Positions 2,941-26,496 of a DNA stretch of 64,000 bases are shown in pieces. The position numbers and the translations under genes are program-made. The notes beneath the pieces are model-generated. The model saw only the letters and a program-made list of their open reading frames with translations, searched no databases and was not told where the DNA came from. The first letter of the stretch is position 1. Every line of letters starts with the position of its first letter. The stretch spans positions 171,949 to 235,948 of the forward strand of contig JAYQSM010000005.1 in assembly GCA_038146885.1 (NCBI GenBank). Direction: 5' to 3'. The stretch is from Rhodospirillaceae bacterium. Its GTDB lineage: Bacteria > Pseudomonadota > Alphaproteobacteria > MPNO01 > UBA2964.

Positions 2941-3900
2941 CTAGGCCCAGACATCATCCCATGAGCCTTGAGTAGCCGCCTTGGAGTATTCAGTAGCTCG
3001 ATTTTCGAAAAAATTGGTATGTTCTACCCCGTTGAGAATCTCGTCCAACCAAGGTAATGGATTAGCTTCTATTCGAAATATCGGCTGCAACCCTAGCTGC
3101 ACTAAACGTCGATCAGCAATATAACGGATATATTGTTTGACCTCAGGAGCGTTTAAACCCTCCACTCCCCCTAGTTCAAAAGCCAGACTTATAAAAGCAT
3201 CCTCATGCTCGACAACGGTAGAACACGCGACATAAATTTCCCTTTGCAATTCCTCAGTCCAAATTTCAGGATTTTCTGAAACAAAGGTCCTGAAAAGTTT
3301 TATAATTGACTCCGTGTGAAGAGATTCATCACGCACAGACCACGAAACGATTTGTCCCATTCCCTTCATCTTATTAAAACGTGGGAAATTTAGGAGGATT
3401 GCAAAAGAGGCAAAAAGTTGGAGACCCTCTGTAAACCCCCCGAAAACCGCGAGTGTCTTTGCTATATCCTCTTTGCTATCAATATTGAAACCCTGCATGT
3501 AATCATATTTTGCTTTCATCTCCTTATAATGCAGAAAGGCCTCATATTCGGTTTCCGGCATACCAATTGTGTCCAACAAATATGAATATGCCGCTATATG
3601 AACTGTTTCGATATTTGAGAAAGCAGCCAGCATCATCTGCACCTCTGTCGGTTTAAAGACTTTGGTATAATGCTTCATATAACAATTATTAACCTCGATA
3701 TCCGCCTGCGTAAAAAAGCGGAATATTTGTGTCAATGTATGCCGCTCTTGCTTTGAAAGTTTGTGATGCCAATCTTTTACATCGTCAGCTAAAGGCACCT
3801 CCTCCGGGATCCAATGAACACGCTGCTGAGTAAGCCAAGCATCATAACACCAAGGATACCTGAAGGGCTTGTACACAACATTTTCATCAAGAAGCGACAT
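2941..3900 (-). CDS. nrdB: Ribonucleotide reductase class I beta subunit (R2), eukaryote-like
   Basis: A 319-aa protein with the iron-ligand and radical-site pattern ...SNIETVHIAAYSYLLDTI (E-x-x-H-x-x-x-Y) and an FFTQADIEVNN helix. It is adjacent to nrdA on the same strand. Confidence 0.85.
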   Translation of the reverse strand: MSLLDENVVYKPFRYPWCYDAWLTQQRVHWIPEEVPLADDVKDWHHKLSKQERHTLTQIFRFFTQADIEVNNCYMKHYTKVFKPTEVQMMLAAFSNIETVHIAAYSYLLDTIGMPETEYEAFLHYKEMKAKYDYMQGFNIDSKEDIAKTLAVFGGFTEGLQLFASFAILLNFPRFNKMKGMGQIVSWSVRDESLHTESIIKLFRTFVSENPEIWTEELQREIYVACSTVVEHEDAFISLAFELGGVEGLNAPEVKQYIRYIADRRLVQLGLQPIFRIEANPLPWLDEILNGVEHTNFFENRATEYSKAATQGSWDDVWA

Positions 3901-3970
3901 TCTTATCTCCGTTTTGGAACCACCCAGAGAGAGGCAACAACTGCCCCAGCCTTAATCTACTCACGCGGAC

Positions 3971-5905
3971 TTACTGACAAGCAAGGCATTCCTCATAGTC
4001 GTTATCATTTTCATCAGGTTTTCGCTCGGCCGCCGACGAAAATGGAATTTCTATTCCATCTGGTGAGGGAATAGGAAGCGCGCCCTTCGCGGCCAAGCCA
4101 ACACCCGAGTGCGTCTCTACCTTTTGGGAAACAGCCTCAGCTCGCTGTATTGACTTCGATCTGCAGTAGTAAAGAGATTTCAATCCCTTTTTCCACGCAC
4201 TCCAATGGATATCATGCAAAACCTTTTTATGAACATCAGATGGCAGGAAAACATTGATCGATTGCGACTGACAAATAAACTCAGAGCGATCCCCCGCTAA
4301 CTCCACAACCCATCTCTGATCTAGTTCAAAGGCTGTTTTGAATACATCCTTTTCTTCTTCTGAGAGAAAATCTAAGTGCTGAACTGATCCTTCATTTGTC
4401 GTTATGGACGACCAAGTCTCGGGAGTATCTTGATCTCTGTCTCTTAGAAGCTCTTTTAGATAACGATTTCTAACTGTAAAGCTACCGGACAAGGTTTTAT
4501 GAGTATAAGAATTTGCAGCGATCGGCTCTATTCCGGCGCTAGCGCCGCCACAAATTATCGAGATAGAGGCCGTAGGCGCTATAGCCATTTTGTGAGAAAA
4601 GCGTTCCAGGATATTGTACTCTGCGGCGTCAGGGCAAGCTCCGCGCTCCTCGGCGAGTTTCCGAGAGGCCACATCCGCTTGCTCCCTAATTTGTTTAAAA
4701 ATCTTTTTGTTCCAGACTTTAGCCATTACGGACTCAAATGGAATCATTTTTTGCTGGAAATATGAATGAAGACCCATCACGCCCAAACCTACAGAGCGTT
4801 CACGCATAGCCGAGTAGCGAGCCCGAGCCATGTCATCAGGTGCATTATCGATGAAATCCTGAAGCACGTTATCTAAAAATCTCATAATATCTTCGACAAT
4901 TAACGGGTTTTCATGCCACTCATCCCAAGTTTCAAGATTTAATGAGGACAGGCAACATACCGCGGTCCTTTGCTCACCGTGCTGATCAATACCGGTCGGC
5001 AGCGTAATCTCGCTACATAAATTGGACATCTTGACTTCTAGACCGGCCAGCTTGTGATGCTCGGGTCGAACTTTGTTTACGTGATCAATGTAGATAAAAT
5101 AAGGCTCTCCCGTTTCTACGCGACAGGTCAATAAGCGAATCCAAAGTGAGCGCGCGGATAGTTTGCGCTGTACAGTACCATCTTTAGGACTTCGAAGGGC
5201 AAAATCCTCACCGTTTTCTACCGCTCGCATGAATTCATCGGTGAGGAGAATACCATGGTGCAAATTGAGCGCCTTACGGTTCGGATCGCCTCCAGTGGGC
5301 CGCCTTAACTCTATGAATTCTTCGATTTCAGGGTGATCAATGGGTAGATATATCGCTGCGGAACCGCGCCTTAGACTTCCCTGAGAAATAGCCAAAGTTA
5401 ACGAGTCCATGACCCTTATGAAGGGAATTATTCCAGAGGTTTTACCGTTAGCACCAACCCTTTCCCCAATCGATCTAAGATTGCCCCAATAACTACCGAT
5501 TCCACCCCCCTTAGCGGCTAACCAGACATTTTCATTCCAAAGACCAACGATCCCTTCAAGACTATCTGATGCCTCGTTCAAAAAACAAGAAATCGGCAGC
5601 CCACGCTTGGTGCCGCCATTGGACAAAACTGGGGTAGCAGGCATAAACCAAAGATTACTGATGTAATCGTAGAGGCGCTGCGCGTGTTCCGAGTCATCCG
5701 CATAATATCCAGCCACCCGTGCAAACATTCTTTGATAGGTTTCATCTGGTAGCAAATATCGATCAGAGAGCGTTTCTTTTCCAAATTCAGTAAGCTTTTC
5801 ATCTTTGGAGTCATCGATCCGAATACGAATACCTCGCTCGTTCTGAAATTCGGAAGAATGATTCAATGCGTCAAGCTCTAGTTTCGCGTCCACGCTATCA
5901 AACAA
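3971..5905 (-). CDS. nrdA: Ribonucleotide reductase class I alpha subunit (R1) with no N-terminal ATP-cone
   Basis: A 644-aa protein with PATPVLSNGG, the LNLHHGILLTD hallmark, active-site NLCSEI and CxxC near the C-terminus. It starts at TTG, preceded by a perfect TAAGGAGG Shine-Dalgarno sequence eight bases upstream. There is no room upstream for an ATP-cone. Confidence 0.85.
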   Translation of the reverse strand: MFDSVDAKLELDALNHSSEFQNERGIRIRIDDSKDEKLTEFGKETLSDRYLLPDETYQRMFARVAGYYADDSEHAQRLYDYISNLWFMPATPVLSNGGTKRGLPISCFLNEASDSLEGIVGLWNENVWLAAKGGGIGSYWGNLRSIGERVGANGKTSGIIPFIRVMDSLTLAISQGSLRRGSAAIYLPIDHPEIEEFIELRRPTGGDPNRKALNLHHGILLTDEFMRAVENGEDFALRSPKDGTVQRKLSARSLWIRLLTCRVETGEPYFIYIDHVNKVRPEHHKLAGLEVKMSNLCSEITLPTGIDQHGEQRTAVCCLSSLNLETWDEWHENPLIVEDIMRFLDNVLQDFIDNAPDDMARARYSAMRERSVGLGVMGLHSYFQQKMIPFESVMAKVWNKKIFKQIREQADVASRKLAEERGACPDAAEYNILERFSHKMAIAPTASISIICGGASAGIEPIAANSYTHKTLSGSFTVRNRYLKELLRDRDQDTPETWSSITTNEGSVQHLDFLSEEEKDVFKTAFELDQRWVVELAGDRSEFICQSQSINVFLPSDVHKKVLHDIHWSAWKKGLKSLYYCRSKSIQRAEAVSQKVETHSGVGLAAKGALPIPSPDGIEIPFSSAAERKPDENDNDYEECLACQ

Positions 5906-6326: not shown

Positions 6327-8216
6327 TTACTTAGCCCGGGTAAAACCGATAGCTGGGTCCATCAACAGGTCCATTAAACTCTTCTTATCCGAATTTCTCA
6401 CAGCCCTCTCCAGACCTTGAATCAATATTTTCAAGTCTTTGTGCGCAATACCCAATTCACGAATTAATTGGATTTTAGGGTGGTCCGATGGGTCGGCAGA
6501 GCCGTCTATTAATAGCTCTTCCTTGAGCTTCTCCCCAGGGCGAAGACCTGTAAACCTAATTTCTATATCACCATTGGGTCTCTCATCTGTCTTCAACGAC
6601 AATCCACTGAGAGATATCATTAATTTTGCCAGTTCGGCGATTAGGATGCTTTGGCCCATATCTAATAAAAAAACTTCTCCACCCTTTGCCATAGAGCCCG
6701 CCTGTATCACCAAAGAGCTAGCTTCAGCCACTGACATAAAGAAACGGCTTACATTGGGATCCGTTACTGTGATAGGACCACCATATTCAATCTGCTTTTT
6801 GAATAGTGGGACAACAGATCCCGAAGAACCCAGAACATTACCAAACCGTACCATAGTGAAAATTGTCATTTGGTTTTCTTGAATCGCAAGATCTTGTATT
6901 ATTAACTCCGCAACTCTTTTACTTGCCCCCATAACATTCGTAGGGCGTACGGCTTTATCAGAGGATATCAAGATGAACCTATCCACCCCATTATTCATGG
7001 CTGCAGTTGCAGTAACTTGGGTCCCGAATAAATTGTTGTGCAGACCTTCGATGGGATTTGCCTCGACCAGTGGCACGTGTTTATAAGCGGCGGCGTGATA
7101 AACAGTCTCTACTTGGTACAATTTAAAGGTTCGATCCACCAGTTCTTGATTTGTCACAGACCCTAGTACGGGTACTATATCGCAGTCGATTCCCTCCTGA
7201 AGACGCAATTCATTCAGAATTTGATCTATCGTATAAAGGGCGTATTCCGAAATTTCAAAAATCACCAGCCTCCTGGCTCCAGCCAACAAGCACTGTCGTG
7301 ATATCTCAGATCCAATTGAGCCGCCGGCCCCGGTAACACAAATCGATTTTTTAAAAATACTTCGAGAAATCAGATCAGGATTTGGGGGAACAGGGTCCCT
7401 CCCCAAAAGATCATTGAGCTCAATGTCTTTCAGGGATTCGATCCTTGCGCCTCGGACGATTTCTGACATCGTTGGCACTGTTTTAACTTTTACGGGCAAG
7501 TCCTCAAAGATTTCAATTATATCTCGCCTTTGACTTCTGCTCGCCGAGGGTATGGCGAGTAAAATGGTTCGTATATTATGTCTCTCAACGAGGATTCTAA
7601 TTTGATCTCTTGGAAAAATTTTTGATCCGAAAACCGTGGCCCCTTGCAGCATCGGATCATCATCGATGAAACCTTTTACAGCGATATTGCTCCCATGACC
7701 GAGCGAATAGACAAGCTCAGTCCCGGCCGAGCCAGCCCCAAAAATCAAAACATTTTCCTTAAGGGTATCCTTCGATATCAGCCAGTCTAAAAAGTGTTTC
7801 GCTGTTAACCGAGAAGAGGTGATGTAAGCCCAAAAGGACAAACCGAAGATAATCGGAACTGACCTCGGGATTTTTAAATCTAGGAAATACATGAGTCCGT
7901 AGATTGCCAACGCGGCTAAACCCGATGCCAATGCAGACAATTTCAGGAAACCAAGTCCTACAGCCCGAGTGATTACTCGATACAGTCCCAGTTTTGCAAA
8001 AATTGGGATCGCTAATAGAGGCAAAATAACAAAAATATAGGAACCGTTCACAAGCCAAAAGGCGGGCCACCAGTCTGACAACCTCATCGCGTAGGCCGCC
8101 CAAAGAACGATCGGTACTGCTATTACGTCGCAGCCCTGAGCTATAAGGCGCTTTTTTTTACGGGACAAAATCATCACCAATGACCTTAAGGAACCGGCAG
8201 TCAACCAAGTTTTCAT
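6327..8216 (-). CDS. Membrane-bound UDP-GlcNAc 4,6-dehydratase (PglF/WbpM/CapD family polysaccharide biosynthesis protein)
   Basis: A 629-aa protein with N-terminal transmembrane helices followed by two Rossmann motifs (GAGSAG and VTGAGGSIGSE). It carries the CapD signature ISSDKAVRPTNVMGASKR and FGNVLGSSGSVVPLF. Confidence 0.8.
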   Translation of the reverse strand: MKTWLTAGSLRSLVMILSRKKKRLIAQGCDVIAVPIVLWAAYAMRLSDWWPAFWLVNGSYIFVILPLLAIPIFAKLGLYRVITRAVGLGFLKLSALASGLAALAIYGLMYFLDLKIPRSVPIIFGLSFWAYITSSRLTAKHFLDWLISKDTLKENVLIFGAGSAGTELVYSLGHGSNIAVKGFIDDDPMLQGATVFGSKIFPRDQIRILVERHNIRTILLAIPSASRSQRRDIIEIFEDLPVKVKTVPTMSEIVRGARIESLKDIELNDLLGRDPVPPNPDLISRSIFKKSICVTGAGGSIGSEISRQCLLAGARRLVIFEISEYALYTIDQILNELRLQEGIDCDIVPVLGSVTNQELVDRTFKLYQVETVYHAAAYKHVPLVEANPIEGLHNNLFGTQVTATAAMNNGVDRFILISSDKAVRPTNVMGASKRVAELIIQDLAIQENQMTIFTMVRFGNVLGSSGSVVPLFKKQIEYGGPITVTDPNVSRFFMSVAEASSLVIQAGSMAKGGEVFLLDMGQSILIAELAKLMISLSGLSLKTDERPNGDIEIRFTGLRPGEKLKEELLIDGSADPSDHPKIQLIRELGIAHKDLKILIQGLERAVRNSDKKSLMDLLMDPAIGFTRAK

Positions 8217-8454: not shown

Positions 8455-9117
8455 TCACCGCCTGACTCGATCACCCAGCCCTTTTCCGAGGAGAGTCAGG
8501 AAAATCATCTGAAAATAAGTCCCTAAATTTAATTTGGAAATCATTTCGGCATCAACTTCCGCAAGCAAGACCGGATTTGACATATCAACTTTATTTATTT
8601 GAGCAAGCCCGGTAATTCCAGGGCGCACGCAAAAAACGCCTTTCTGTCGGCGAACTTGGCTCAACTCCTCATGCTCCGCTAACCCCGGCCGTGGCCCAAC
8701 AAGGCTCATGTCGCCCTTGAGGACATTCCATAATTGCGGGATCTCATCCAACTTAGTTTTTCGTAAAAAAGATCCTAACGAAGTTATCATTTCTGGATCC
8801 ACCATGTGTGTGGGCAATGACAAAGTTTCTGGGCGCATCGTCCGAAATTTAATCAAGGAAAAAGGTTTCTCAAAACGTCCGATCCGTTCTTGAAAAAAAA
8901 GGGGAGCACCGCTGGAAAATAATATTATCGCGGAAATCAGTATAAAAATCGGCGTGAGCAGCGCTAACCCAAGAAACGAAAAAATGATATCAAGAAAACG
9001 AATCATTTCATTTGCCAATCTTAGGATTCTTTTACAGTCTCGTACCACATCTGAAACATCAATAGTCCCCACAACTGATGATCCCAGTTCTTCTCTCCTG
9101 AAATATGTTGTGCCCAA
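8455..9117 (-). CDS. Small undecaprenyl-phosphate sugar phosphotransferase (bacterial sugar transferase; PglC/WbpL/WbaP C-domain type)
   Basis: It contains FFQERIGRFEKPFSLIKFRTM...SLVGPRP...DEIPQLWNVLKGDMSLVGPRP-like motifs. The listed ORF overlaps the upstream amidotransferase, so the likely real start is the internal Met (MIRFLDIIF...) near 9003. Confidence 0.75.
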   Translation of the reverse strand: MGTTYFRREELGSSVVGTIDVSDVVRDCKRILRLANEMIRFLDIIFSFLGLALLTPIFILISAIILFSSGAPLFFQERIGRFEKPFSLIKFRTMRPETLSLPTHMVDPEMITSLGSFLRKTKLDEIPQLWNVLKGDMSLVGPRPGLAEHEELSQVRRQKGVFCVRPGITGLAQINKVDMSNPVLLAEVDAEMISKLNLGTYFQMIFLTLLGKGLGDRVRR

Positions 9118-10973
9118 ACCTCGGAAACCTTTTCTGCTCTAAAAAACCCGTCTATTTTTATTCTATTTTCAGAAAGGTGAGTTTCGGCCCATTCTCTCAA
9201 TGGCCCTTTCAACCAGGAACCAATCGGAACTCCGAAACCCATTTTCGGCCTATCAATGATTTCCGTTGGTAAGTATTTTTTCAAAACTTGCCGCAATATC
9301 CACTTCCCTTGTCCATGGTTCATTTTCATCCGTTGGGGCAGTCTCCATGCTAATTCGACCACCTTATGGTTTAAAAATGGAGCCCGTGTCTCGAGGGATA
9401 CTGCCATACTAGCGCGATCGACCTTCGTTAAAATGTCGTCCGGCAAATACCTGAGAGCGTCAAAAAGCATCAGTTTCTCAACAAGAGTAAGTTCGCTAGG
9501 AATACTGGGGAGATGGAAACTGTCCTGAAACTCGCTACGCATGATGTGCTCAGGTTGATCCCAATTATTGACAAAGCCGGTATAAAGATCATTGAAATTC
9601 CCTGCCGAGATAACCCTACTTAATTTATGGAATTTACTACCCACGTTGCTAAGGCCATCAAATATCGGGATTTTCCGACACCAAAGGTCATATTTATCCT
9701 GGGAAATGGCCTCCAAGCGCTTCGCAATAAAAACGCGAATTCCAGATGGAAGCCAATTTATAGTTTGCCATAGTCTGGTTGCTGTATATCGATTATAACC
9801 GCAGAAAACTTCATCTCCTCCGTCTCCAGTCAATGCCACCGAGACCTGCCGCTTTGCCAACTTTGAAACTAAGTATGACGGGATCTGTGAGGAATCTGAG
9901 AAAGGTTCGTCATAGACCGCAGGCAAATCCGGTATGATGTCGCGAGTCTCTTTTGGGCTAACATACAATTCATGATGGTCTGTACCCAAATGTTCTGCTA
10001 CGGCACGCGCTTTGGGTGCCTCATCGTAGGACGGCTCAGAGAACCCGATAGTGAAGGTTTTAATCGGTTTGGTCGATTGCTCTTGCATCAAAGCAGTAAT
10101 GGTAGAGGAGTCGATCCCACCGGACAGGAGAGCACCCAGAGGGACATCAGAAATCATTTGCTGGCAAACGGCTTGCCTCAACATATCCTCAAGTCGTTCA
10201 ACAGCATCCAAAGTTTTGTGTGCCCAACGATTAGAGACACCCTCAGAAACTGACTGAGTAAGCGACCAAAATGGCTTTGATTCTGGTAGATTTTTTTCAG
10301 AAAAATCTTTGGGACCCAGCTGAATGAAATGACCGGGCTCAAGTTTTTTTATGCCCTTATAAATTGACGCAGGCGCCGGTATATAATTGTAACGCAGGAA
10401 AGCTGAAACTGCTCTATTGCTTATAGCCCCTCTAAAGCTAGGGTGTCTCCGAAGTGCCTTAAGTTCGGATCCGAAAAGAAAACTCGATTTACCCGTCGAC
10501 GTTTGCCAACCATAATATAATGGCTTCTCCCCCAATCGATCTCGAGACAAGGTCAAGATCTTTTCTTTACGATCCCAAAGCGCGAATGCAAACATACCAA
10601 CCACTTCCCGGAGCGTTTTCTCAACTCCCCATGTCTCAAAGCCCGCCAAAAGAGACTCTGTGTCCGAGCTCCCTCTCCAACAAGGCCCTCCGCGTTGTTG
10701 ATTTAAAAGAGACCTAATTGCGGCATGATTATAGATTTCGCCATTAAAACTTAAAACGTATCTCTCCCCTGTCGAGTGCATGGGCTGATTTCCCGCTTCT
10801 GAAACATCAAGGATCGATAACCTCCGATGGCCCAGTCCAAACCCAAAGTCTCTATCAGACCAAATTTGACCGCAATCTGGCCCACGATGGAAAAGCGTTT
10901 CCGACATATTGGCCAGAATTCGATCAAAAGAACGCTTATAGTCTTGAGAATAAAATCCTGATATGCCGCACAT
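9021..10973 (-). CDS. asnB: Asparagine synthase (glutamine-hydrolysing) family amidotransferase; WbpS-like, probably amidating a uronic acid sugar
   Basis: A 650-aa protein with the N-terminal MCGI Ntn-glutaminase start, HRGPD and the SGGIDSS PP-loop. It sits inside a polysaccharide operon next to a UDP-sugar dehydrogenase. Confidence 0.8.
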   Translation of the reverse strand: MCGISGFYSQDYKRSFDRILANMSETLFHRGPDCGQIWSDRDFGFGLGHRRLSILDVSEAGNQPMHSTGERYVLSFNGEIYNHAAIRSLLNQQRGGPCWRGSSDTESLLAGFETWGVEKTLREVVGMFAFALWDRKEKILTLSRDRLGEKPLYYGWQTSTGKSSFLFGSELKALRRHPSFRGAISNRAVSAFLRYNYIPAPASIYKGIKKLEPGHFIQLGPKDFSEKNLPESKPFWSLTQSVSEGVSNRWAHKTLDAVERLEDMLRQAVCQQMISDVPLGALLSGGIDSSTITALMQEQSTKPIKTFTIGFSEPSYDEAPKARAVAEHLGTDHHELYVSPKETRDIIPDLPAVYDEPFSDSSQIPSYLVSKLAKRQVSVALTGDGGDEVFCGYNRYTATRLWQTINWLPSGIRVFIAKRLEAISQDKYDLWCRKIPIFDGLSNVGSKFHKLSRVISAGNFNDLYTGFVNNWDQPEHIMRSEFQDSFHLPSIPSELTLVEKLMLFDALRYLPDDILTKVDRASMAVSLETRAPFLNHKVVELAWRLPQRMKMNHGQGKWILRQVLKKYLPTEIIDRPKMGFGVPIGSWLKGPLREWAETHLSENRIKIDGFFRAEKVSEVWAQHISGEKNWDHQLWGLLMFQMWYETVKES

Positions 10974-11233
10974 GATCCATCTTTACCTGTTAAGGAACCC
11001 TAACCGCTACTAGTAAATCAGTTATATTAAATTTAAGTACACTTTGATTGGACTTTTCACCCAGTCTAAGAGTGATCCCGATTTTTCAATTATTGTATTG
11101 ATAACTCCAAAAACATCGATCTGAGCAATGCTAAAACATCACTCAGATGGTGAGTCTCAAATAAGGGTCATCAATCTATCGTCGATCCCGACTGGGCACG
11201 CCCCCCCTAGATATCGCATTACACTTCTCTTCT

Positions 11234-11244
11234 CCCCCCCCCCC
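11234..11244. repeat. Homopolymeric C tract of 11 C in the intergenic region between the dehydrogenase and amidotransferase genes
   Basis: The sequence reads tctCCCCCCCCCCCgcg directly. It lies about 260 bp upstream of the amidotransferase start, in a glycan locus where such tracts commonly phase-vary. Confidence 0.6.
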
Positions 11245-11314
11245 GCGAAGCCCGAATTTGATACTTATTCTAACTCAATCTAGAGATGAACAATGAATTG
11301 GCAGGACCCCTCTC

Positions 11315-12592
11315 TCAAAGCCGCAAATCCGTCCACTCCGGGTCCAAAACGTACTTCAGATCGTAAATAACAGACGGATCCTTGCACAAACCTCGAATTT
11401 TATTTGGGCCCATTTCTAAAAATTGCGTATGGCCCACTGCAATGATAATTCCGTCATAATAATTATCTTTCAAACTGGTAACGACTGCTACTCCCAGTTG
11501 ATCTTCCGCTTGTTCAGGGGTTACCCATGGATCAAAAATATCGACCGCACAGCCATGCTGGACAAGTCCGTTAAATACCTCAATGATCAATGTGTTACGA
11601 ACATCAGGACAGTTCTCCTTGAAAGACAGACCCATTATCAGAATTTTCGCCGAATTAATTTGTATATTTCGTGAGGTCATAATCTCAAGAAACTGTGAAA
11701 CAACATAACCGGGCATGGAATCATTGAGTTTTCTTCCTGCAGTTATGATTTGTGGTTCATAACCAAAAGTTCTTGCCTTAAAAGTCAAATAATAAGGGTC
11801 AATCCCAATACAGTGGCCGCCAACCAGACCTGGACGGAACGGGTGAAAATTCCATTTTGTACCGGCAGCCTTGAGCACCTCTTCAGTTTCTATACCCATC
11901 TTATTGAAAATAATCGCTAGCTCGTTCACTAGAGCTATATTTATATCTCTTTGTGCGTTTTCAATAACCTTTGCCGCCTCAGCTATTTTGATACTTTTGA
12001 CCTTAAATGTGCCCGCGGTAATTATTTGGCGATATAAAGAGTCCACCAGGTTGGCAACCTCAGCGTTAGAACCGGAAGTTATTTTCTTGATAGAAGGCAA
12101 TGTATGGTTCGGATCACCTGGATTTATACGTTCAGGCGAATAACCACAAAAAAAGTCCTTATTAAATCGTAACCCTGAGGATTTTTCCAGAACGGGGACC
12201 AACTCTTCCTCAGTCGCCCCGGGATACACGGTTGATTCGAAAATGACTACGTCACCCTTCCCAAGCACACGCCCAATGATATCTGCGGCTGAGATTAACA
12301 TCGATAAATCCGGACATTTTTCAGAGTCAACAGGTGTTGGTACAGTCACAATATAACAATTAGCGCGCTCAAGATCCTCGCTGCTATCAGATATCGCTAA
12401 AAACTTAGCCTCTTTCAATTGAGCAGTGGATACCGCAAGTGTTGGGTCAACACCCGATCGAAGGTCTTCCACCCTTTGAGGGTTTATATCATAACCTATG
12501 ACTGATCTAGTACGCGCAAACTCAACTGCCAAGGGCAATCCCACGTAGCCCAGGCCAACAACTGCCAAACTGAGCTCCTCAAGTTTTCTCAA
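11315..12592 (-). CDS. wbpO: UDP-N-acetyl-D-glucosamine 6-dehydrogenase (TviB/WbpO/Cap5O family nucleotide-sugar dehydrogenase)
   Basis: A 425-aa protein with the near-canonical stretches VVGLGYVGLPLAVEF, ESTVYPGATEEE, GYSPERINPGD, GGHCIGIDPYYL and DIFDPWV. It is collinear with TviB/WbpO as I recall them. Confidence 0.85.
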   Translation of the reverse strand: MRKLEELSLAVVGLGYVGLPLAVEFARTRSVIGYDINPQRVEDLRSGVDPTLAVSTAQLKEAKFLAISDSSEDLERANCYIVTVPTPVDSEKCPDLSMLISAADIIGRVLGKGDVVIFESTVYPGATEEELVPVLEKSSGLRFNKDFFCGYSPERINPGDPNHTLPSIKKITSGSNAEVANLVDSLYRQIITAGTFKVKSIKIAEAAKVIENAQRDINIALVNELAIIFNKMGIETEEVLKAAGTKWNFHPFRPGLVGGHCIGIDPYYLTFKARTFGYEPQIITAGRKLNDSMPGYVVSQFLEIMTSRNIQINSAKILIMGLSFKENCPDVRNTLIIEVFNGLVQHGCAVDIFDPWVTPEQAEDQLGVAVVTSLKDNYYDGIIIAVGHTQFLEMGPNKIRGLCKDPSVIYDLKYVLDPEWTDLRL

Positions 12593-12661: not shown

Positions 12662-13672
12662 CTATCGACTCTCATAATATTTCTTGTACCACTCTACAAA
12701 GGCCTTAATCCCCTCCTCTACGGGAGTAAATGGCTCAAAACCTATTTCTGTTCGAAAACTTTCAACGCTCGCCGATGTATTGGTTACATCCCCAGGCTGC
12801 AAAGGCAGAAAATTTTTCTTAGCCTGTATTCCCAGATTGAGCTCCAAAAGATCGATATACTTCATTAGGCTCACTGATTGATCTGAGCCAATATTCAACA
12901 CCCTGAATGGCGCGGTTTCGCTTAGGCCAGGCTGTATAAAATTTGCTTCGCCCCTTGATTTTTTAGGTGGTCGATCGAGGCAACGCACAACACCGGCCGC
13001 AATATCATCAATGTAGGTGAATGAGCGCGCCATATTACCATTGTTGTAAATATTGATTGGCTCCCCTGCTAAGATGGCTTTCGTGAACAAAAAAAGAGCC
13101 ATGTCGGGACGCCCCCAGGGCCCGTAGACCGTAAAAAACCTTAGGCCTGTGGACGGAAAACCAAACAAATGGGAGTAGCAGTGCGCCATCAATTCATTGG
13201 CTCTTTTGGAAGCAGCATACAAACTGAGAGGATGATCAACGCTATCCTTTTCCTCAAACGGCAATTTTGTGTTGCCACCATAGACTGAGCTGGAAGAGGC
13301 ATATACCAGGTGTTTAATATCAAAATTTCGACAGCCCTCCAGAATATTCAAGAACCCAGTTAAATTACTCCTTACATAGGCATGAGGTTGTACCAGGGAG
13401 TGTCTAACGCCCGCCTGCGCCGCCAAGTTTACCACAGTATCCGGACGATGATCCCTAAAGAGCCGGGTTACGCCCTGACAATCCGCTAAATCAATTCGAG
13501 CCTCAGTGAAATTTGGATAGACCTTCAGTTTCGCAAGCCTTGCTTTTTTTAAACTCACTTCGTAGTAGCTATCTAGACTATCGAGCCCGATAACCTCATC
13601 TCCACGGTCTAGTAAGAACTCGCACACTCTGTGCCCAATAAAACCGGCACTCCCGGTCACAATGACTTTCAT
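12662..13672 (-). CDS. NAD-dependent nucleotide-sugar 4-epimerase (UDP-glucuronate 4-epimerase Cap1J/LpsL-like)
   Basis: A 336-aa protein with VTGSAGFIGHRVCEFLL, DSYYEVSLKKARL, YAASKRANELMAH and RFFTVYGPWGRPDMA. Confidence 0.75.
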   Translation of the reverse strand: MKVIVTGSAGFIGHRVCEFLLDRGDEVIGLDSLDSYYEVSLKKARLAKLKVYPNFTEARIDLADCQGVTRLFRDHRPDTVVNLAAQAGVRHSLVQPHAYVRSNLTGFLNILEGCRNFDIKHLVYASSSSVYGGNTKLPFEEKDSVDHPLSLYAASKRANELMAHCYSHLFGFPSTGLRFFTVYGPWGRPDMALFLFTKAILAGEPINIYNNGNMARSFTYIDDIAAGVVRCLDRPPKKSRGEANFIQPGLSETAPFRVLNIGSDQSVSLMKYIDLLELNLGIQAKKNFLPLQPGDVTNTSASVESFRTEIGFEPFTPVEEGIKAFVEWYKKYYESR

Positions 13673-14499
13673 TGAAACGCCCTCCGAACGTTCCAGGCCA
13701 TTACGGATTTATAATATAGGCTTCTTAAGATTGATCCATTGCTGCAATGTCAACATGATTTAGGTCAAGATAGTGAAGATAAATTTGCCTCGAAAACCGG
13801 GCATTGTAGCTGGGCTCACAAAACAGCATCGGCTCTAAAACAAAAGAAATAGAGACAAAAACAATGTATCAATAGGGTTTTTGAGGGTTTAAAAGGTATC
13901 GTAACTCTGCGCCTCGGGGATTTCTTTTTTTAAAATAGCGGCTAGTCTGCCGGATCCCGTGATTTCCGATCCACCTATCATCGAAAAAAGACGCATCATT
14001 CTGTCCTGGCGCTTTTTTAGCTGAAATTGATTGGAGAATAAGGGAATTAGTCACCATTTGAAGGCAATGTTATGCCGGTATGGATCTCGTTAATTGTATT
14101 TGATGAAAGTCATGTTTCTATTAAAATCACTATCCAGCGCACACTAACATTTCATCCTCCTGAGGTATTCTCCGACTGCACCTTCAATGATCTCCAATAT
14201 GTGACTCCATTTCATTTTCTAATCGATGGTGTTCGTTTTCTGATGAAAGTCGACTGGTTTTTTTGCAATTGAAAGGTCTTATCCCCTTTGCACCAAAAAA
14301 GTAACCCAGAGACGCCAATCCAATGTTCTGTCCTGTTTATGATATTGTAAACCTATACGGGCCCCGGGATGATATGTAACCTTGACCTTGAAATCCTCAC
14401 CTGACCTAATGATGGTGTGTGATCCCCAGGGGTCTGAAATATTTTGATTAATCCTCTCAAGTCCTTGATTCAGTTCCTGAGGTTTTCTTTGACTATTTT

Positions 14500-15558
14500 T
14501 TATTTTCTTGAGACACTATTCTTCGAAGAAACAAATACTGCATCCTCCGTGACAGCGACCACTGTGTCTTTGAGCCCCAGAGCTACCAGAAAGGGTCCCT
14601 CACTTCTCAGATAGCTGTTTTCAACGTCATCGGCCAGAACTTCTCCTACGATTACATTGTGATCTTCATCCTTTTTTCCCAAATCCCATAAGGACGACCA
14701 TGAGCCGATCGCCCCACCCCATGCTAATGGGAACTACTACTGACCATCAGTCTTTTCCATTACCGCTAGCATCGATTGACCCCAGCTGGGCATTTACCGA
14801 AAGCACTCATCTAAACGCAAAAATCTTTATCTTTACTGGCCTTGCATACGGCATCGCGAGCAGCCATCAGGGTTTCGACTAAATTTGAGTTCTTCTAAAT
14901 AGCTCTTGCAAGAAAATAGGAATAAACCGCTATTCCAATCATAGTTTCTTCCTTCCTCCACGAATGACTTGGCAAGCTCTAAAGGGGGCTTTTCAATAAA
15001 TTTATCAACTTCGAAGATCCTATCGCTTTTAGGGAGAGGGCGTCCTCTCTTTATGTAGCCATAACCTATTTCGGGCGATTGGGCCTTAATTCCGAAGGTC
15101 ACCAATTTACCCGAAGTTGCAATGGGCAATGCCTTTTCAACAGCTTGTATTAAGGCTTTTTTATTGGAGACAAAGTGATCGGACGGCAGCATTGTGGGAT
15201 TATAGCCTCCCTCATCAACTTTTGAGCTAAATGACGCCACTGCCGCGGCAGGTAGCAGGAGAGCGCTCTGGTTCAAGAACGATAGCATTGGCCTGGACTC
15301 CAATCTCCCTCAATTGTTGGGCTGCCAAAAATCTATGATCATTACACGACAAGGGAGGAAGAAAAACGTCCGATATACGCAACGCTGTTCTTGAAAAAGA
15401 GTGTGTTCGGGAAAAAGAGAAATGAACTGTTTGGTTTCATCCCGCTGAAAGCGGCCAAAAAGTCTAGTCCTGAGCCACCAAGGTAAAGAATTACGGGGAG
15501 AACTAAACTGTGGGCTAAAGTTTCCTATATATTTTAATCTACTCCCTCTGTTTTTCAA
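14500..15558 (-). pseudogene. manC: Mannose-1-phosphate guanylyltransferase (ManC) broken into at least three frameshifted pieces
   Basis: Fragment 15310..15558 has the N-terminal SRLWPLSR/PKQF-like stretch. Fragment 14833..15303 has the central nucleotidyltransferase region (LVTFGIKAQSPEIGYGYIKRG...NSGLFLF). Fragment 14500..14682 has a later segment. Confidence 0.55.
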
Positions 15559-16258
15559 AAACCTAAAGTTTAAAAAAAAAAAAAAAGATTTTCAATTTAA
15601 TGTATTTGATTTCGAAACTTCCGCATTGGGCCTTATTGAAGATTGTTTTGGCAAATAGTACCGCATTAATTGCCTTAATAGAAAAAATACGCCAACAACC
15701 AGTCCTTTTCAGTGGGTCCTGAAGTGCGGAATATTCCAAGTGAGGGAAATTTGAGTTAATGAATTCACTTTTCACATGAATAGCCAGAGCCATCATAGCC
15801 GAATTGGTTCCGAGTTTACTGATAAGGGACGTCAGAGTGATTGTTATCGATAACTAGAATTCTTAATACAATACCTGGTCAAAACACGTCCGAATATTTC
15901 GTTATTTTTAGGATTGCCGCCTGTTCATTAAGACCAATGTTACTGGCTCAGCTTCGACCGTTCCAGGCCCAAGGTGCATAACCTCCCATCTGAGTAAACC
16001 GAATAGCGGGAATGTTCTTATGGTCTGGAGCCAAAAAAAAAATTAAGACCAACATTTTACTAATGAAATAATAAAAGCTTTTTATTAATTAGCCAATTTC
16101 TGAGAGGTGCCAAAGATAATCCCCAGAGTTATAGAACGGACAAACAAATTAAGCAAATTCGAGCGAAGGACCTTTTGAATAGCACTCGGGCCCCGTAATT
16201 CTCAGGATAAACACCGGTGCTCAGAAGGAAAGGGTGCCAATTCGGCATTGAAGAGACC

Positions 16259-17590
16259 CTAAATGCCCAGGCGTCCCAAAGCTTTGCACGTCGTAGTCAC
16301 TAGCTTCTGCCATGGAAAGACCTTGAATAAAATAAAGAGCCCCAGCCCGAAAGATGTGCCATTTGACAGAAAAGCGGCCAAAGCAAGACCCGGAATCCCA
16401 AGCTCCCAATAAACTACAAAAATGATGTTGGCTAAAACCGCGGCAGCAACCCCCGCCCCACTAGTTAAGGTTACCCCCCAGTATAGCTGCCGTGCCTGAA
16501 GTCCACGGTATAAAATTGGGAGCGACATTATAAAAGGAAGAGAGAAGGCAAAACATTGCAAACAAAATGACGCCAGCTGAGTATCAACTTTTAGAAACTT
16601 TCCATAACCAAATAATAACTCAATCACAAAGTCAGCAGCTAACCAAAACAAAATCATGCCCCTGCGCCGGTTAACAGGGCTATTTGATGTATTTTAAAAA
16701 TCACTCTTCTGTCTTCCGCGTTCTGACAGATCCTAGCCATAAGTAACTGGTCCAGGTTCAAGACTCCCTTTGGAGCCATAAGTACCAAAGAAGCCAGGCT
16801 CATAGCTGTAACAACTTTTTCGCCGATAAACGCAGACATTCCCTTTTCAATAAGTAATTGCATGGGGGATAGGGAGGCAGCACAAATCATCGCCAAATAC
16901 TGACGTGTTATCACCCCGCTGAACTTACCACCTTTTAACCGAATTCCGTGGTATTTTCTCGATGCCAGAATCAAGGTAACAAGGGAAAAAAGCCTACCCA
17001 AGGATATTCCTAAGAGAAAGTGATTGGGGCTCCTAGGTCCGCGATAACCAGGGCAACAAATATAATCAACACAAAAAGGTTATTATAGAATTCTGAAACA
17101 AAGTAGGGTGTGTGGACATCTCTTGCTCTTAAAAGAGCCCCATAATGCTGAAAATACATACTGCCAAAAACATATGGAATAAGAATTAGGACAGAGGAGC
17201 AGAAATAATCCCGCTGAAAAAAATCAATCTGAAAATAGGATCCGAAGTCTATAAGACCAATTAATAAAAAAACAAAACATGCTATCACGGCAGAAACATT
17301 GGTGTATCGGGAAGAAGCGAAGAGGCTGTCTCTTGATAGTCCCTCTCTGATCTCTGGAGTGCCTTGACTAAATTGGGGACTCCTACGCTGTCGAGTGAGT
17401 CCGCAAAGATAAGAGGGAGAGCTGTCGCCGCAATCGCCAGAAATACCAGGTCTGTCTCGGCATTCGCGCCAAAATAATAGGCAAAAAGGCTTAACTTTAG
17501 ATACGAAAGGACCTAGAAACCAATGCCAGGCTGGCCGTCTGGGAGAGTAATCTTGAGAAAGAAGGTTTGATAAAACTTAAACTATAAGCC
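16259..17590 (-). pseudogene. wzx: O-antigen flippase (Wzx, MOP superfamily) broken into several frameshifted transmembrane fragments
   Basis: ORFs 16259..16657, 16654..17001 and 17010..17288 and further 5' pieces are consecutive hydrophobic polytopic segments collinear with Wzx. Confidence 0.5.
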
Positions 17591-18069
17591 ATCCAATTTT
17601 ACCACCTAGAGAACCTCAAAGAGGCGCGCATTTGGCGTCAAGAGACTTTTCGGGTTGCACCAAAAGAAAACTCAACGATAGCGGACAAGATTTCCAAAAT
17701 CATACACTTAATAGCCAACCCTTTTACTGACTTTACGGCCCGATAGGTAATCTTTTGCGTTGATCCTAGAGATGATCAAAATCCAACAAAACTTTTCTCC
17801 CTCAAACGAAAAAAAATGCGCCTCCTACCAGCCCTTACATCCCCAAGAGAATTGGATAGATTTCTTTGGCCATCGGGCCCAGCGAGATTACACTTGTGTG
17901 CCACTCTCTCAAAATCATATTTGGTAGGTTATAAACTTTTCATGGGAATGGTTCGACTTAGAGGGGTTTCTTGAAGTAGTCCGAATGATATTCTGAGGCA
18001 GTGATCGAATGGCTTTTTCCCGATAAATTCAACTAATTCCTTGAAACTTTGAAACCCGTCAGCAAGGTG

Positions 18070-18717
18070 TCAAAAATGGGGATGCACTAAGAGCATCATT
18101 ACACGATCATCTTTCTCATTAGCTTCGATAGCCTTGCAGAGCTCATACAGCCATTCCCGAATGTCTTTATTGCCTTTTCTTCCATGCCGGACTGAGTCGT
18201 GATCAACTGGAAAGTTGACCGGGATTTTGATGAGGTTCCGACCATCAAAGCAGGCCTTCAGGTCCAATCTTATTTGATATGGTTTTGAATCCCATGTCAT
18301 CTAGGATCGAATTGGTCCCATTATCAGACAGGAAGGCATGATTACGCCAAGAAACAATTCTCCTCCCAGTGATATCATGGGAGCGAACGAACGGTCTTAG
18401 GATTATCCCTTTTGAAAACCTCTCGGCCATTGACGACCATTCAGCCGACGAAGACCGCCCCAAATTAGCCAAGGTTGATAAGCGCTATAGGTATGACCCG
18501 AAATTTCCATTTCATAATTCTCGGCAATATATCTGAGCAAAACGGGCTCCTCTTCAGCGATTTTTCCAGTCATATAGACATTCGGCCGCACGCCATAGCG
18601 ATTCGCTATTGCCAAATATTTTTCGGTTAATTTTAGTTCTGTTTCTCCATAAGCAAGAGAACCTTGATCATGTCCTCCCATAGAAAAATGATGAACGTCA
18701 GCGCTAACAATAATCAT
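18070..18717 (-). pseudogene. Polysaccharide deacetylase family gene, frameshifted
   Basis: Fragments 18403..18717, 18245..18472 and 18070..18300 are collinear pieces. They include HTYSAYQPW and LLVHPHF-type C-terminal motifs. Confidence 0.45.
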
Positions 18718-18722
18718 CCGGC

Positions 18723-19381
18723 CTATCCCATTTTTTGACCCAGAATGTATAAATACGGACCAAACATTCTGTCAAAAGGATCTGAACGGCAGTATCTCCC
18801 CATTGCACTGCCGATCGCTCGAGCTTCAATGATTCTAAGCCCTGCATCAAGAAACCATCTTTCGACCTGGCCAACTCTCAAGTTGCGTCCGCGGACCATT
18901 TCAAATGTTCCAGATCCCCATTCTTTATTTTTTATGTAAGAGAACCAACGTTTCACAGTATGAGGTCCGATGTGGGGAGTGGTAACCAAAACATACCCTC
19001 CTGACTTTGTAACCCTGGCATGCTCCCTTAACAGCCAGAGATGACCGGGAAAATGTTCAATAACTCCAAGGAGTATGTCAAGTCGAACAAATCGGAGCCA
19101 AATGGCAGAGATCTCGTATCGGCTTCCTGAAAGTCCACATCTTCCATCTCGAGCCTATTATATAAATCTACCGCGGAAAACGTGGATTCGCAGCCGGATC
19201 GACGCAGGAGACGTATCATCCGCCCCGTCCCGACTCCAATCCTAAAATCCGTTCTGAATCGGAGGCAAGACAAGAAAAACCCTTCAAAAAATATTCTTTC
19301 TTGAGGTGCAAGGCGGTCATCAAATTCAACTTTTTGCCAATATTCTCTGATCTCTCTAGACATAGCAGTAATCCAACGCAC
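18723..19381 (-). pseudogene. Class I SAM-dependent methyltransferase, frameshifted into two pieces
   Basis: ORF 19028..19381 carries motif I (GVGTGRMIRLL). ORF 18723..18989 carries the C-terminal part. Confidence 0.5.
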
Positions 19382-19694
19382 ATGATTTAGTTAAATGACA
19401 AACAATTCGGATTCCCAGTTCAGAAAAATCCAATTACACATCTGCACCACTCAGAAGGCCCGTCACCTAAAAACCACTGATCTGCAGGGGGCACAGCCAA
19501 CTCTATTAACTGCAAACCAGTTGTCGGTAACTTTTGTATCTAGGTTTTAGCAGAATAAGCTGACATAACCTATGGTCGAAATTAGATCTTAAAAAAATTA
19601 CAGTTACACGCTATGGGCAAAAATCCAAAAGTAATTTTCGATTCAACCGCTATCACTTAGAATAAGAAATCAACAACCACTCGAGGGGACATCA

Positions 19695-20878
19695 ATGGCT
19701 AATACCGAAGGGAGAGGATTAGTAAGGCTCTCTCAATCAGGATACCTGAATCGACAATTCGATGTCATTAGCAATGCCGAAGATCTAGAACATATTTTTC
19801 TCTGGATGATTTTCCGGTTTTTTAGGTTGCACTGACCAGCCGATAGATAAAGACATCAAAGCTGAGATGTCATTTTCAATCAGCAAAACAAGCGGTTGCG
19901 TTCAGTTAGATAAATTAATTCCTCTACACATATTGTACGCAGAAAATCACGCTACTGTTGTAGGCGAATTATGGGAAAATCATCATAAAAAGTTTGCAGA
20001 ATTCTTGAACGAGTTAAATCCGTAAAAAAAATGTTCTTGAGATAGGTGGTGCCCATGGAATGTTGTGTAAAAATGTTCAGCTAACCAATCCTTCCACAAA
20101 TTGGACAATAATAGAGCCTAATCCAATTCCCGTTGGAAATGTCAAAGCCCAATACATACGGGGTTTTTTTGATAGCTCTTTCAAAACAGATGAAAACTTC
20201 GACATGGTCGTCCACTCTCACACCCTAGAGCATAGCTACAATCCACAAAAATTCATTTCCGATATTTCGAATATTTTATCTTGTGGTAATTTTCATTGCT
20301 TTAGAGTTCAAAACAAAGAGCACTGGCTTAGAAGAAAATATACAAACGCCCTAAATTTTGAACACACCTACTTATTGAATGATGTCTACATCGAGAATTT
20401 ATTGAAGAATAGTGGATTTGAGATCATTAAGAAACAAGACTTTGGTGACAAGCATTCTACATTTTATGCCGCTGTTAAAACTAAAGCAATTTCAGATAGA
20501 AGAGCTTCGTATTCGCAAAAAATGTACGACGACAACTTCAATTTGATATCAGCCTATAGAAGGTATCTAACTGACGAAGTTTCCAAAATCAATAATGAAA
20601 TTAGAAAACAAGAAGGCCCTGTATATCTATTCGGTGCTCATGTTTTCAGTCAAACACTTGTTTGCTTAGGTCTCGATACAAAGAACATCAAGTATCTACT
20701 GGATAACAGCGATGCGAAAATAGGAAAGAGGCTGTATGGAACCAATTTATCAGTTCAAAGCCCCAAAATTTTAAAAGGTGAAAAAAATCCAGTTGTAATA
20801 ATCAGAGCGGGGGCATACCAAAATGAGATTATTAGAGGAATTCGTAATCTTCACAATGGGAATACGGAGTTTATCTAG
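19695..20878 (+). pseudogene. NDP-hexose C-methyltransferase-type enzyme (putative zinc-binding domain plus C-methyltransferase C-terminal domain). The N-terminus is frameshifted and the large C-terminal ORF 20060..20878 is intact.
   Basis: N-terminal pieces near 19695 and 19865 (..SGCVQLDKLIPLHILYAENHATVVGELWENHHKKFAEFL..) resemble the zinc-ribbon/Methyltransf_13 start. ORF 20060..20878 carries the Methyltransf_14-like C-terminal domain. Confidence 0.45.
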
Positions 20879-21808: not shown

Positions 21809-22129
21809 TTAGCTCTGATTTGATCCATATTCGGTATGAACAGTAAAGATGAAAGATCCATCCTTTTTTAACAAGCGTCTCACTTCATTAAGATAAAGTT
21901 CAATATTGTCCAAATATTCGAAAAGCCCGAAACAAGTAATAAAATCGAAAGACGAATCTCCGAAGGGAACCAACGAAGCATCTCCATTAATGAAAAATAC
22001 CGATGCCTTGCCTGTATATGTTTCTTTAGCCCCGCGAACCATCTCCAATGAAATATCAAGGCCGCAATAACACTGGGCCCGGTCTCCAAGAAAAGAGATG
22101 ACACGACCCACACCACACCCAAGATCCAA
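21809..22129 (-). pseudogene. SAM-dependent methyltransferase remnant (Methyltransf_11-like) with no N-terminus
   Basis: The 106-aa ORF begins directly at motif I (LGCGVGRV) and continues through ...FDFITCFGLFEYL...LLKKDGSFIF. I found no upstream continuation. Confidence 0.45.
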
Positions 22130-23447: not shown

Positions 23448-23463
23448 AATGCTCCTGTTCTTA

Positions 23464-26465: not shown

Positions 26466-26496
26466 TCCGCAAATAAGGGCTGCGCACCCATTTTAA

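What the first reader, a model, noticed from the sequence alone, without database searches (positions are those of the whole stretch)
11234..11244. An 11-nt poly-C tract in the promoter region of the amidotransferase/transferase operon
Homopolymeric C/G tracts of 9 nt or more are classic slipped-strand phase-variation switches in LPS and capsule loci. This one lies between two glycan genes and upstream of an operon. The same locus is full of single-base frameshifts, many of them in short homopolymers.
Basis: seen in the sequence. Interest (0 to 1): 0.5.

Follow-up and report, generated by a model that had tools for sequence, protein, structure and literature searches.

The report
Unstable poly-G run between capsule genes
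The 11-base C/G run is real and is an insertion/deletion hot spot between two sugar-coat operons of an uncultured estuarine bacterium, but related lineages lack it and nothing places it in a promoter, so it is most likely an ordinary unstable repeat and not a proven on/off switch.

Summary
The C11 run at 11234-11244 exists exactly as reported. It reads as G11 on the minus strand, which is the coding strand here. It is the only G/C run longer than 7 in the 64 kb, and a G7 lies 26 nt away. It sits in the 341-nt spacer between a UDP-sugar dehydrogenase gene and an AsnB-like amidotransferase / initiating transferase / CapD operon, 70 nt after the dehydrogenase stop and 260 nt before the amidotransferase ATG.

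Three points argue against a promoter switch. No sigma-70-like hexamers flank the run. A conserved hairpin plus T-run (terminator-like) lies between the run and the downstream gene. The run is not conserved in relatives.

Two related lineages differ. One has GGGAGG in place of G11, and G8 in place of G7. The other has a 39-nt deletion between the two G runs, leaving a single G7 that is identical in four assemblies.

Across 8,997 aligned bases between the window and the closest relative, the only two indels are at these two G runs. The site is therefore an indel hot spot.

Best reading: an intrinsically slippage-prone homopolymer in weakly constrained spacer DNA. A regulatory (phase or rheostat) role is neither supported nor excluded. 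Read-level heterogeneity could not be tested. Interest is low to moderate.

The parts
11234..11244 (-). G11 homopolymer (C11 on + strand), the reported tract
   Evidence: Replaced by GGGAGG in L089 and deleted in the L086 lineage.
11208..11233 (-). 26-nt spacer between the two G runs. Its 5' half, AGAAGAGAAG, continues the all-purine stretch. It is unique in the window.
   Evidence: Lost together with one G run in the 39-nt deletion of the L086 lineage.
11201..11207 (-). Second G run (G7). It is G8 in L089 and is the single surviving G7 in the L086 lineage.
11109..11148 (-). Terminator-like hairpin (13-bp stem, 4-nt loop, -16.1 kcal/mol) followed by CGATGTTTTT. It lies between the G runs and the amidotransferase start and is conserved in all three lineages.
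10974..11314 (-). 341-nt intergenic spacer. No Rfam family, no sigma-70-like promoter, and no overall excess RNA structure (z = 0.39).
11315..12568 (-). UDP-glucose/GDP-mannose dehydrogenase family gene (417 aa as called in relatives). Its stop codon is 70 nt before G11.
12662..13672 (-). NAD-dependent sugar epimerase/dehydratase, the first gene of the conserved block on this side.
9021..10973 (-). AsnB-like glutamine amidotransferase (starts MCGISG). This is the gene the tract was proposed to control.
8455..9072 (-). Bac_transf (PglC/WbaP-type initiating sugar-phosphate transferase). It overlaps the amidotransferase 3' end.
6327..8216 (-). CapD/WbpM/PglF-type polysaccharide biosynthesis protein (Polysacc_synt_2).
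8576..11424 (.). Block that is 98-100% identical to the L086 lineage outside the tract-containing spacer (71% in the bin holding the 39-nt indel, 95% in the next spacer bin). It is flanked by 80-90% identity, indicating recent recombination. It contains the tract.

Best explanation
The tract is a real, intrinsically slippage-prone G/C homopolymer. Together with a nearby G7, it forms an indel hot spot in weakly constrained spacer DNA between two transcription units of a Wzx/Wzy/Wzc-type polysaccharide locus. The host is an uncultured estuarine 'Rhodospirillaceae' lineage.

Shown: the run exists, it is intergenic, it differs between lineages by expansion/contraction and by a 39-nt deletion between the two G runs, and the downstream operon is intact whichever state is present.

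Inferred: the changes arise by replication slippage or misalignment between the G runs. They have little or no effect on expression, because the tract lies upstream of a terminator-like hairpin (so probably in the 3' untranslated tail of the dehydrogenase transcript) and outside any recognisable promoter.
For: - The tract and its neighbour G7 are verified.
- Order on the coding strand: stop codon, 70 nt, G11, 26 nt, G7, about 52 nt, hairpin plus T-run, 135 nt, ATG.
- No sigma-70-like promoter occurs in the spacer of the window, L086 or L089, and the hairpin is conserved in all three.
- L089 (97% identical over 9 kb) has GGGAGG and G8. Its only two indels in 8,997 aligned nt are at the two G runs.
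- The L086 lineage has a 39-nt deletion bounded by the two G runs. It occurs although the adjoining AsnB gene is 98-100% identical to the window's in 150-nt bins.
- That deleted form is identical in 4 independent assemblies, so a G7 is stable.
- The AsnB, transferase and CapD genes are intact in all three states.
- There is no other G/C run of 8 or more in the roughly 40-kb glycan locus.
- A G9 arises by synonymous change inside the essential RNR gene of a relative, so long G runs appear neutrally in this lineage.
- No Rfam match and no unusual RNA fold.
Against: - An 11-nt G/C run is rare: none in 1.47 Mb of comparable loci.
- Two of the four longest G/C runs of the window lie 26 nt apart in one spacer of a surface-glycan locus, which is where contingency repeats are typically found.
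- Distal repeats can regulate. Examples are the NadA repeat upstream of the core promoter (PMC2791445) and the sabA T-tract rheostat (PMC4081817), both seen.
- The promoter type of this organism is not known, and the scan covers only sigma-70 consensus.
- By the PhasomeIt nearest-gene rule (PMC6321876) the tract would be linked to the amidotransferase 5' end, narrowly: 260 nt against 70+200 nt.
Confidence: 0.55

Rival explanations
1. Transcriptional phase-variation or rheostat switch. Slippage in G11 (and G7) changes the spacing or structure of a distal promoter/operator element, or changes read-through from the dehydrogenase gene. This would turn the amidotransferase / initiating-transferase / CapD operon, and hence the surface polysaccharide, up or down, for example as bet-hedging against phage.
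For: - The tract length is well above the cut-offs used for phase-variable G/C repeats (7 or more in PhasomeIt, PMC6321876).
- It lies upstream of an operon that includes the initiating transferase.
- Indels between lineages occur only at the G runs.
- Distal repeats are known to regulate (PMC2791445, PMC4081817).
Against: - No -35/-10 pair lies near the tract.
- A hairpin plus T-run lies between the tract and the gene.
- The tract is 260 nt from the ATG.
- The tract is interrupted or deleted in both related lineages while the operon stays intact.
- The states seen are not simple plus/minus one-unit variants of one tract. One (the 39-nt deletion) is irreversible and one (the interrupted run) is unlikely to revert by slippage.
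- There are no other long G/C tracts in the locus.
- This is an environmental, presumably mismatch-repair-proficient organism, and no phasome is known for it (own knowledge).
Confidence: 0.15
2. The length is a consensus or assembly artefact. A G run exists here, but '11' is mis-called, because the contig comes from an error-prone or low-coverage (for example long-read) metagenome assembly.
For: - Window 13.7-33.5 kb carries about 21 frame-switch junctions, and single genes are split into 3-4 frame segments. This density is more typical of indel-type consensus errors than of young pseudogenes (inference).
- The window's own strain is not on record in any other assembly, so no second copy confirms the length.
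- The only indels against L089 are at homopolymers, which is also what homopolymer miscalling would give.
Against: - The conserved part of the window (1-13.7 kb) has no frameshifted gene and no indel against L089 outside the two G runs, so consensus quality around the tract looks good.
- The differences from relatives are 7 nt and 39 nt, not the 1-2 nt expected from miscalling.
- Flanking sequence aligns cleanly on both sides.
Confidence: 0.15
3. G-quadruplex or structural element in the sense strand. GGG-CTTCGC-G11 fits the G3+N1-7 x4 motif. It could stall RNA polymerase or alter termination at the downstream hairpin, modulating read-through into the amidotransferase operon.
For: - The motif is visible in the sequence.
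- ViennaRNA with G-quadruplex energies places a 2-layer quadruplex in G11 in the minimum-energy fold of the window variant (-78.6 against -58.3 kcal/mol).
Against: - No quadruplex is predicted for the L086 or L089 variants, so it is not a conserved feature.
- There is no experimental precedent in this lineage.
- The prediction rests on energy parameters alone.
Confidence: 0.05
4. The C run is coding. A small + strand ORF (11128-11283, 51 aa) reads the C11 as a proline run, and tract changes would frameshift it.
For: The ORF stays open with the same start and stop in all three lineages. The net indels are -39 and -6 nt, both multiples of three.
Against: - In L089 the middle 26 nt are read in another frame.
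- The substitutions between lineages are non-synonymous (DGESQ / DAKSQ / DGKSH).
- The ATG sits in the loop of the hairpin with no Shine-Dalgarno sequence.
- Two multiples of three arise by chance 1 time in 9.
Confidence: 0.03

Closest known systems
Promoter-located poly-G/poly-C phase-variation tracts of host-adapted bacteria (Neisseria porA/opc/fetA, Bordetella fim genes; own knowledge), as catalogued for intergenic tracts by PhasomeIt (PMC6321876)
   Same: A perfect G/C homopolymer above the length at which slippage becomes frequent. It is intergenic, upstream of surface-structure genes, and its length and state differ between related lineages.
   Different: - Those tracts sit inside or next to the core promoter. 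This one is 260 nt from the start codon, has no recognisable hexamers around it, and has a terminator-like hairpin in between.
- It is not retained in relatives.
- No other such tracts occur in the locus.
- The organism is a free-living estuarine bacterium.
Distal or rheostat-type repeat regulation (N. meningitidis nadA TAAA repeat, PMC2791445; H. pylori sabA T-tract, PMC4081817)
   Same: These show that a repeat outside the -35/-10 spacer can still tune transcription. That would be the only way this tract could act.
   Different: Those repeats lie within or next to mapped regulator-binding or UP-like elements close to the promoter. No such element is known or detectable here.
Neutral mononucleotide microsatellites and deletion between short direct repeats (replication slippage)
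   Same: - Indels are confined to the homopolymers.
- A 39-nt deletion is bounded by two G runs.
- An interrupted variant (GGGAGG) occurs in one lineage.
- There is no constraint on surrounding sequence beyond the hairpin.
   Different: A length of 11 is unusually long for a G/C run in a bacterium with 44% GC. Such runs are normally selected against or are short-lived.
Hypervariable glycan ('metagenomic') islands of marine bacterioplankton (own knowledge: Rodriguez-Valera and colleagues' constant-diversity model)
   Same: - The tract lies 2.4 kb from the edge (13672) of a strain-specific segment of the polysaccharide locus.
- Neighbouring genes show mosaic identity (80-100%) between lineages.
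   Different: In that model diversity comes from gene-cassette replacement and recombination, not from repeat-mediated switching.

Membership tests
SSR-mediated transcriptional phase variation (contingency locus) | Perfect homopolymer at or above the length known to slip at high frequency (G/C of 7-9 or more) | tested here: met
   G11/C11 at 11234-11244. The cut-off of 7 or more is used in PMC6321876.
SSR-mediated transcriptional phase variation (contingency locus) | Tract lies within the core promoter (between -35 and -10), or at a defined operator or 5'-UTR element of the regulated gene | tested here: not met
   There are no sigma-70-like hexamers around the tract in the window, L086 or L089. 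The tract is 260 nt upstream of the ATG, with a conserved hairpin plus T-run in between. Other promoter types were not testable.
SSR-mediated transcriptional phase variation (contingency locus) | Reversible plus/minus one-unit length polymorphism among close relatives or within a population | tested here: inconclusive
   The second run is G7 against G8. The first is G11 against GGGAGG against deleted. The G7 of the L086 lineage is identical in 4 assemblies. No reads are available, and no second copy of the window strain exists.
SSR-mediated transcriptional phase variation (contingency locus) | Tract retained at the orthologous position across strains | tested here: not met
   It is interrupted in L089 and removed by a 39-nt deletion in L086/L170/L171/L172, while the operon is intact.
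SSR-mediated transcriptional phase variation (contingency locus) | Several such tracts enriched in surface-structure genes of the genome | tested here: not met
   Within the window's roughly 40-kb polysaccharide locus this is the only G/C run of 8 or more. A genome-wide test was not possible because the genome is not available.
SSR-mediated transcriptional phase variation (contingency locus) | Tract length changes expression (ON/OFF or graded) | not testable with these tools
   This needs transcript or reporter data.
Intrinsic (rho-independent) terminator, for the hairpin at 11148-11109 | Stable G+C-rich stem-loop immediately followed by a U run | tested here: inconclusive
   The stem is 13 bp at -16.1 kcal/mol but has only 4 G-C pairs, and the T5 run starts 5 nt after the stem. 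It is conserved in 3 lineages without covariation.
Canonical G-quadruplex motif (G3+ N1-7 x4) | Four G runs of 3 or more separated by loops of 1-7 nt on one strand | tested here: met
   GGGCTTCGCGGGGGGGGGGG on the minus strand. A 2-layer G4 is in the minimum-energy fold of the window variant only. Formation in vivo is not testable.

The most novel reading that the evidence does not exclude
In a free-living estuarine alphaproteobacterium, a mutable G run (possibly folding as a G-quadruplex in the sense strand) sits just before a weak terminator. It would act as a heritable, stochastic attenuator of read-through from the sugar-precursor genes into the amidotransferase / initiating-transferase operon. 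This would give phase- or rheostat-variable capsule production as bet-hedging against phage, a contingency-locus strategy so far described mainly in host-adapted pathogens.
Probability: 0.07. Interest if true: 0.6.

Novelty: new member of a known kind. Interest (0 to 1): 0.22.

Why it matters
If the tract were a working switch, it would extend repeat-mediated phase variation of surface glycans to uncultured planktonic bacteria. There, glycan diversity is usually explained by gene-cassette exchange under phage pressure. As the evidence stands, it is mainly a worked example of why a long homopolymer near surface genes is not enough. Position relative to promoter and terminator, and retention across relatives, both argue for an ordinary unstable repeat. 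It also flags that tract length, and the many frameshifts in the adjoining strain-specific segment, should be checked against reads before any biological reading.

Tried and rejected
1. Exact-protein look-ups for the window's amidotransferase, dehydrogenase (425 and 417 aa), epimerase, porin and amidohydrolase found nothing. The window strain has no second copy on record. Only the RNR small subunit and the 205-aa transferase matched.
2. A genome-contig scan and two metagenome-contig scans (a 24-mer next to the tract, then the AsnB protein) gave only homologues of about 50% identity or nothing. They were of no use for tract comparison.
3. P0122, a cluster member on a 346-kb contig, could not be retrieved.
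4. Rfam at gathering and at E<=1 gave no family. Folding the whole spacer gave z = 0.39.
5. The 26-nt spacer is not a repeated element in the window. The spacer has no phage match and the 4.7-kb block around it has no plasmid match.
6. The small + strand ORF through the tract was rejected.
7. Recombination junction at the tract was rejected. The identity switch against L086 is at about 11425, inside the dehydrogenase gene.
A Markov simulation timed out and was replaced by the analytic estimate.
9. The association of the island's frameshifts with short homopolymers is not above the random expectation.

Full report
**1. Observation.**
The window holds an uninterrupted C11 at 11234-11244 on the + strand. 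All neighbouring genes are on the minus strand, so on the coding strand it is a G11. It is the only G/C run longer than 7 nt in the 64 kb. One of the three runs of 7 (11201-11207) is only 26 nt away in the same spacer.

A first-order Markov model of the window predicts 0.04 runs of 11 or more per 64 kb, about 2.6 per 4 Mb. The window's own run-length decay (x0.235 per base) predicts about 0.01. The tool's dinucleotide shuffles gave 3 or more 9-mer matches in 12 of 100 shuffles. The tract is real and locally unusual, but a single such run per genome is not by itself beyond chance.

**2. Context.**
Pfam assigns the following genes, all on the minus strand:

| Window coordinates | Gene |
|---|---|
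| 12662-13672 | Sugar epimerase |
| 11315-12568 | UDP-glucose/GDP-mannose dehydrogenase family |
| 9021-10973 | AsnB-like glutamine amidotransferase (starts MCGISG) |
| 8455-9072 | Bac_transf initiating transferase, overlapping the amidotransferase end |
| 6327-8216 | CapD/WbpM-type protein |
| 2941-5905 | Ribonucleotide reductase (RNR) |

Further along lie glycosyltransferases, Wzy_C proteins, a Wzz/tyrosine-kinase (Wzc-like) protein and a beta-barrel porin, up to about 46 kb. The tract therefore sits inside a roughly 40-kb Wzx/Wzy-type polysaccharide locus.

By analogy with wbpO/wbpP/wbpS-type gene sets (own knowledge), the conserved block probably makes an amidated N-acetyl-hexosaminuronic acid. 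This was not tested.

**3. Anatomy of the spacer (minus strand).**

| Element | Window coordinates |
|---|---|
| Dehydrogenase stop codon TGA | 11317-11315 |
| 70 nt | |
| G11 | 11244-11234 |
| 26 nt (AGAAGAGAAGTGTAATGCGATATCTA) | 11233-11208 |
| G7 | 11207-11201 |
| About 52 nt | |
| 13-bp hairpin with 4-nt loop (-16.1 kcal/mol), followed by CGATGTTTTT | 11148-11109 |
| 135 nt | |
| Amidotransferase ATG | 10973 |

- The consensus scan finds no sigma-70-like -35/-10 pair anywhere in the spacer. It flags the hairpin as terminator-like in the window and in both relatives.
- If the hairpin terminates or attenuates transcription, the tract lies in the 3' tail of the dehydrogenase transcript, not in the promoter of the next operon.
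- No Rfam family matches. The spacer as a whole folds no better than shuffles (z = 0.39).

**4. Relatives.**
The window's strain is not on record elsewhere, but two related lineages are.

*L089.* This is NCBI MAG GCA_038109245.1, annotated 'Rhodospirillaceae bacterium'. It is 96.9% identical to the window over 9 kb. At the tract it reads GCGGGAGG-TAGAGAAG instead of GCGGGGGGGGGGGAGAAGAGAAG, and it has G8 instead of G7. In 8,997 aligned nt with 273 substitutions, these are the only two indels.

*The L086 lineage.* It comprises three JGI samples plus NCBI MAG GCA_038135415.1. It lacks 39 nt, a deletion bounded by the two G runs, and keeps a single G7. Its 302-nt spacer is identical in the four assemblies that cover it.

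Window and L086 share a block (11424-8576) that is 98-100% identical outside the tract-containing spacer bins, and it is flanked by 80-90% identity. This block was exchanged recently, yet the G-run region already differs by a 39-nt indel. The identity switch is at about 11425, not at the tract. In all three lineages the amidotransferase, transferase and CapD genes are intact.

**5. Reading.**
The comparison shows that the two G runs are the indel hot spot of the region. This fits the known physics of long homopolymers, which undergo slipped-strand mispairing (established knowledge; PMC6321876 for cut-offs).

It does not show a switch:
- The states are not plus/minus one variants of a retained tract. 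They are an expansion, an interrupted short run and an irreversible deletion.
- The operon is intact in every state.
- No promoter elements surround the tract, and a conserved hairpin separates it from the gene.
- The rest of the glycan locus has no other G/C run of 8 or more.
- A G9 arises by synonymous change within the essential RNR large-subunit gene of the L086 lineage: AAG GGG GGG GGA, against GGT/GGC in the others. Long G runs therefore appear neutrally in this group.

I therefore favour an ordinary, unstable, probably neutral homopolymer (0.55).

A regulatory role remains possible (0.15), because distal repeats can tune promoters (PMC2791445, PMC4081817) and the organism's promoter type is unknown. 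By PhasomeIt's nearest-gene rule the tract would narrowly be linked to the amidotransferase 5' end, 260 against 70+200 nt.

**6. Quality caveat.**
Window 13.7-33.5 kb is the segment that neither relative shares; alignments stop at 13672. It has about 21 frame-switch junctions on the minus strand. Genes there match one homologue in two to four frames, for example the DegT-like gene at 27582-26521. The flanks are intact.

Junction zones contain a homopolymer of 4 nt or more in 16 of 21 cases, against 68% of random zones.

This density of frameshifts with otherwise well-preserved protein similarity suggests consensus errors in a low-coverage, strain-specific island as much as real decay. I could not decide between the two. 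It does mean the exact length '11' needs read support (rival, 0.15). Against a pure artefact, the conserved 13.7 kb around the tract has no other indel against L089, and the differences from relatives are 7 and 39 nt.

**7. Other ideas tested.**
- *Small coding ORF.* A 51-aa + strand ORF (11128-11283) runs through the tract and stays open in all three lineages, with net indels of -39 and -6 nt. However, its middle is read in a different frame in L089, its substitutions are non-synonymous, and its ATG lies in the hairpin loop without a ribosome-binding site. Rejected.
- *G-quadruplex.* The sense strand fits a G-quadruplex motif (GGG-CTTCGC-G11). ViennaRNA with quadruplex energies places a two-layer G4 in the window variant only. 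It is not conserved and remains speculative.
- *Repeated or mobile element.* The 26-nt spacer is not a repeated element in the window. The spacer has no phage match and the 4.7-kb block around it has no plasmid match.

**8. Organism and habitat.**
The closest AsnB (95% identical) is from a 'Rhodospirillaceae bacterium' MAG. Near-identical short contigs come from SRR26337533 and SRR26337555. These runs are listed as coastal/brackish-water metagenomes in PMC10877094. Other AsnB homologues are about 50% identical. This is a free-living planktonic lineage, not a host-adapted pathogen of the kind where poly-G contingency loci are well established (own knowledge).

**9. Verdict.**
This is a new instance of a known kind of feature, an unstable mononucleotide repeat in a glycan locus. 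Interest is 0.22.

Noticed in passing
window 13700-33500: The strain-specific part of the polysaccharide locus is riddled with frame switches. There are about 21 junctions on the minus strand, and single genes match one homologue in 2-4 frames, for example the DegT-like gene at 27582-26521. The flanks 1-13.7 kb and 33.5-64 kb are intact. This is either a decaying glycan island or low-coverage consensus errors. Association with homopolymers of 4 nt or more is not above chance.
   Followed up: partly
window 15572-15586 and 16033-16042: These are the longest homopolymers of the window. A15 (T15 on the coding strand) lies roughly 50-150 nt upstream of a frameshifted NTP-transferase-type gene, and an A10 lies about 450 nt further on. 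Both are in the frameshift-rich island.
   Followed up: no
L086 8391-8399 (equivalent to window about 5530): The L086/L081 lineage has a G9 inside the essential RNR large-subunit gene (AAG GGG GGG GGA). The window and L089 have GGT and GGC at the interrupting codon. A long G run was therefore created by a synonymous change.
   Followed up: yes
window 8576-11424 vs L086: A 2.8-kb block covering the dehydrogenase 3' end, the spacer, AsnB and Bac_transf is 98-100% identical to the L086 lineage outside the tract-containing spacer bins. It is flanked by 80-90% identity on both sides. L089 is uniformly about 97% identical. This is a mosaic produced by recent recombination within the glycan locus.
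   Followed up: yes
window 1-46000 vs 46000-64000: G+C is about 0.43 across the polysaccharide locus and its left flank, and about 0.50 from 46 kb onward. This fits a horizontally exchanged, low-GC glycan region.
   Followed up: no
window 11153-11170 and 11251-11269: An imperfect inverted repeat (15 nt, 80% complementary) brackets the two G runs, with about 83 nt between the arms. It may be chance. It is not part of the centroid fold.
   Followed up: no
L089 10374-10473: The closest relative's contig has a 100-N scaffold gap inside the RNR large-subunit gene, which splits the gene call in two. This is an assembly feature, not biology.
   Followed up: yes
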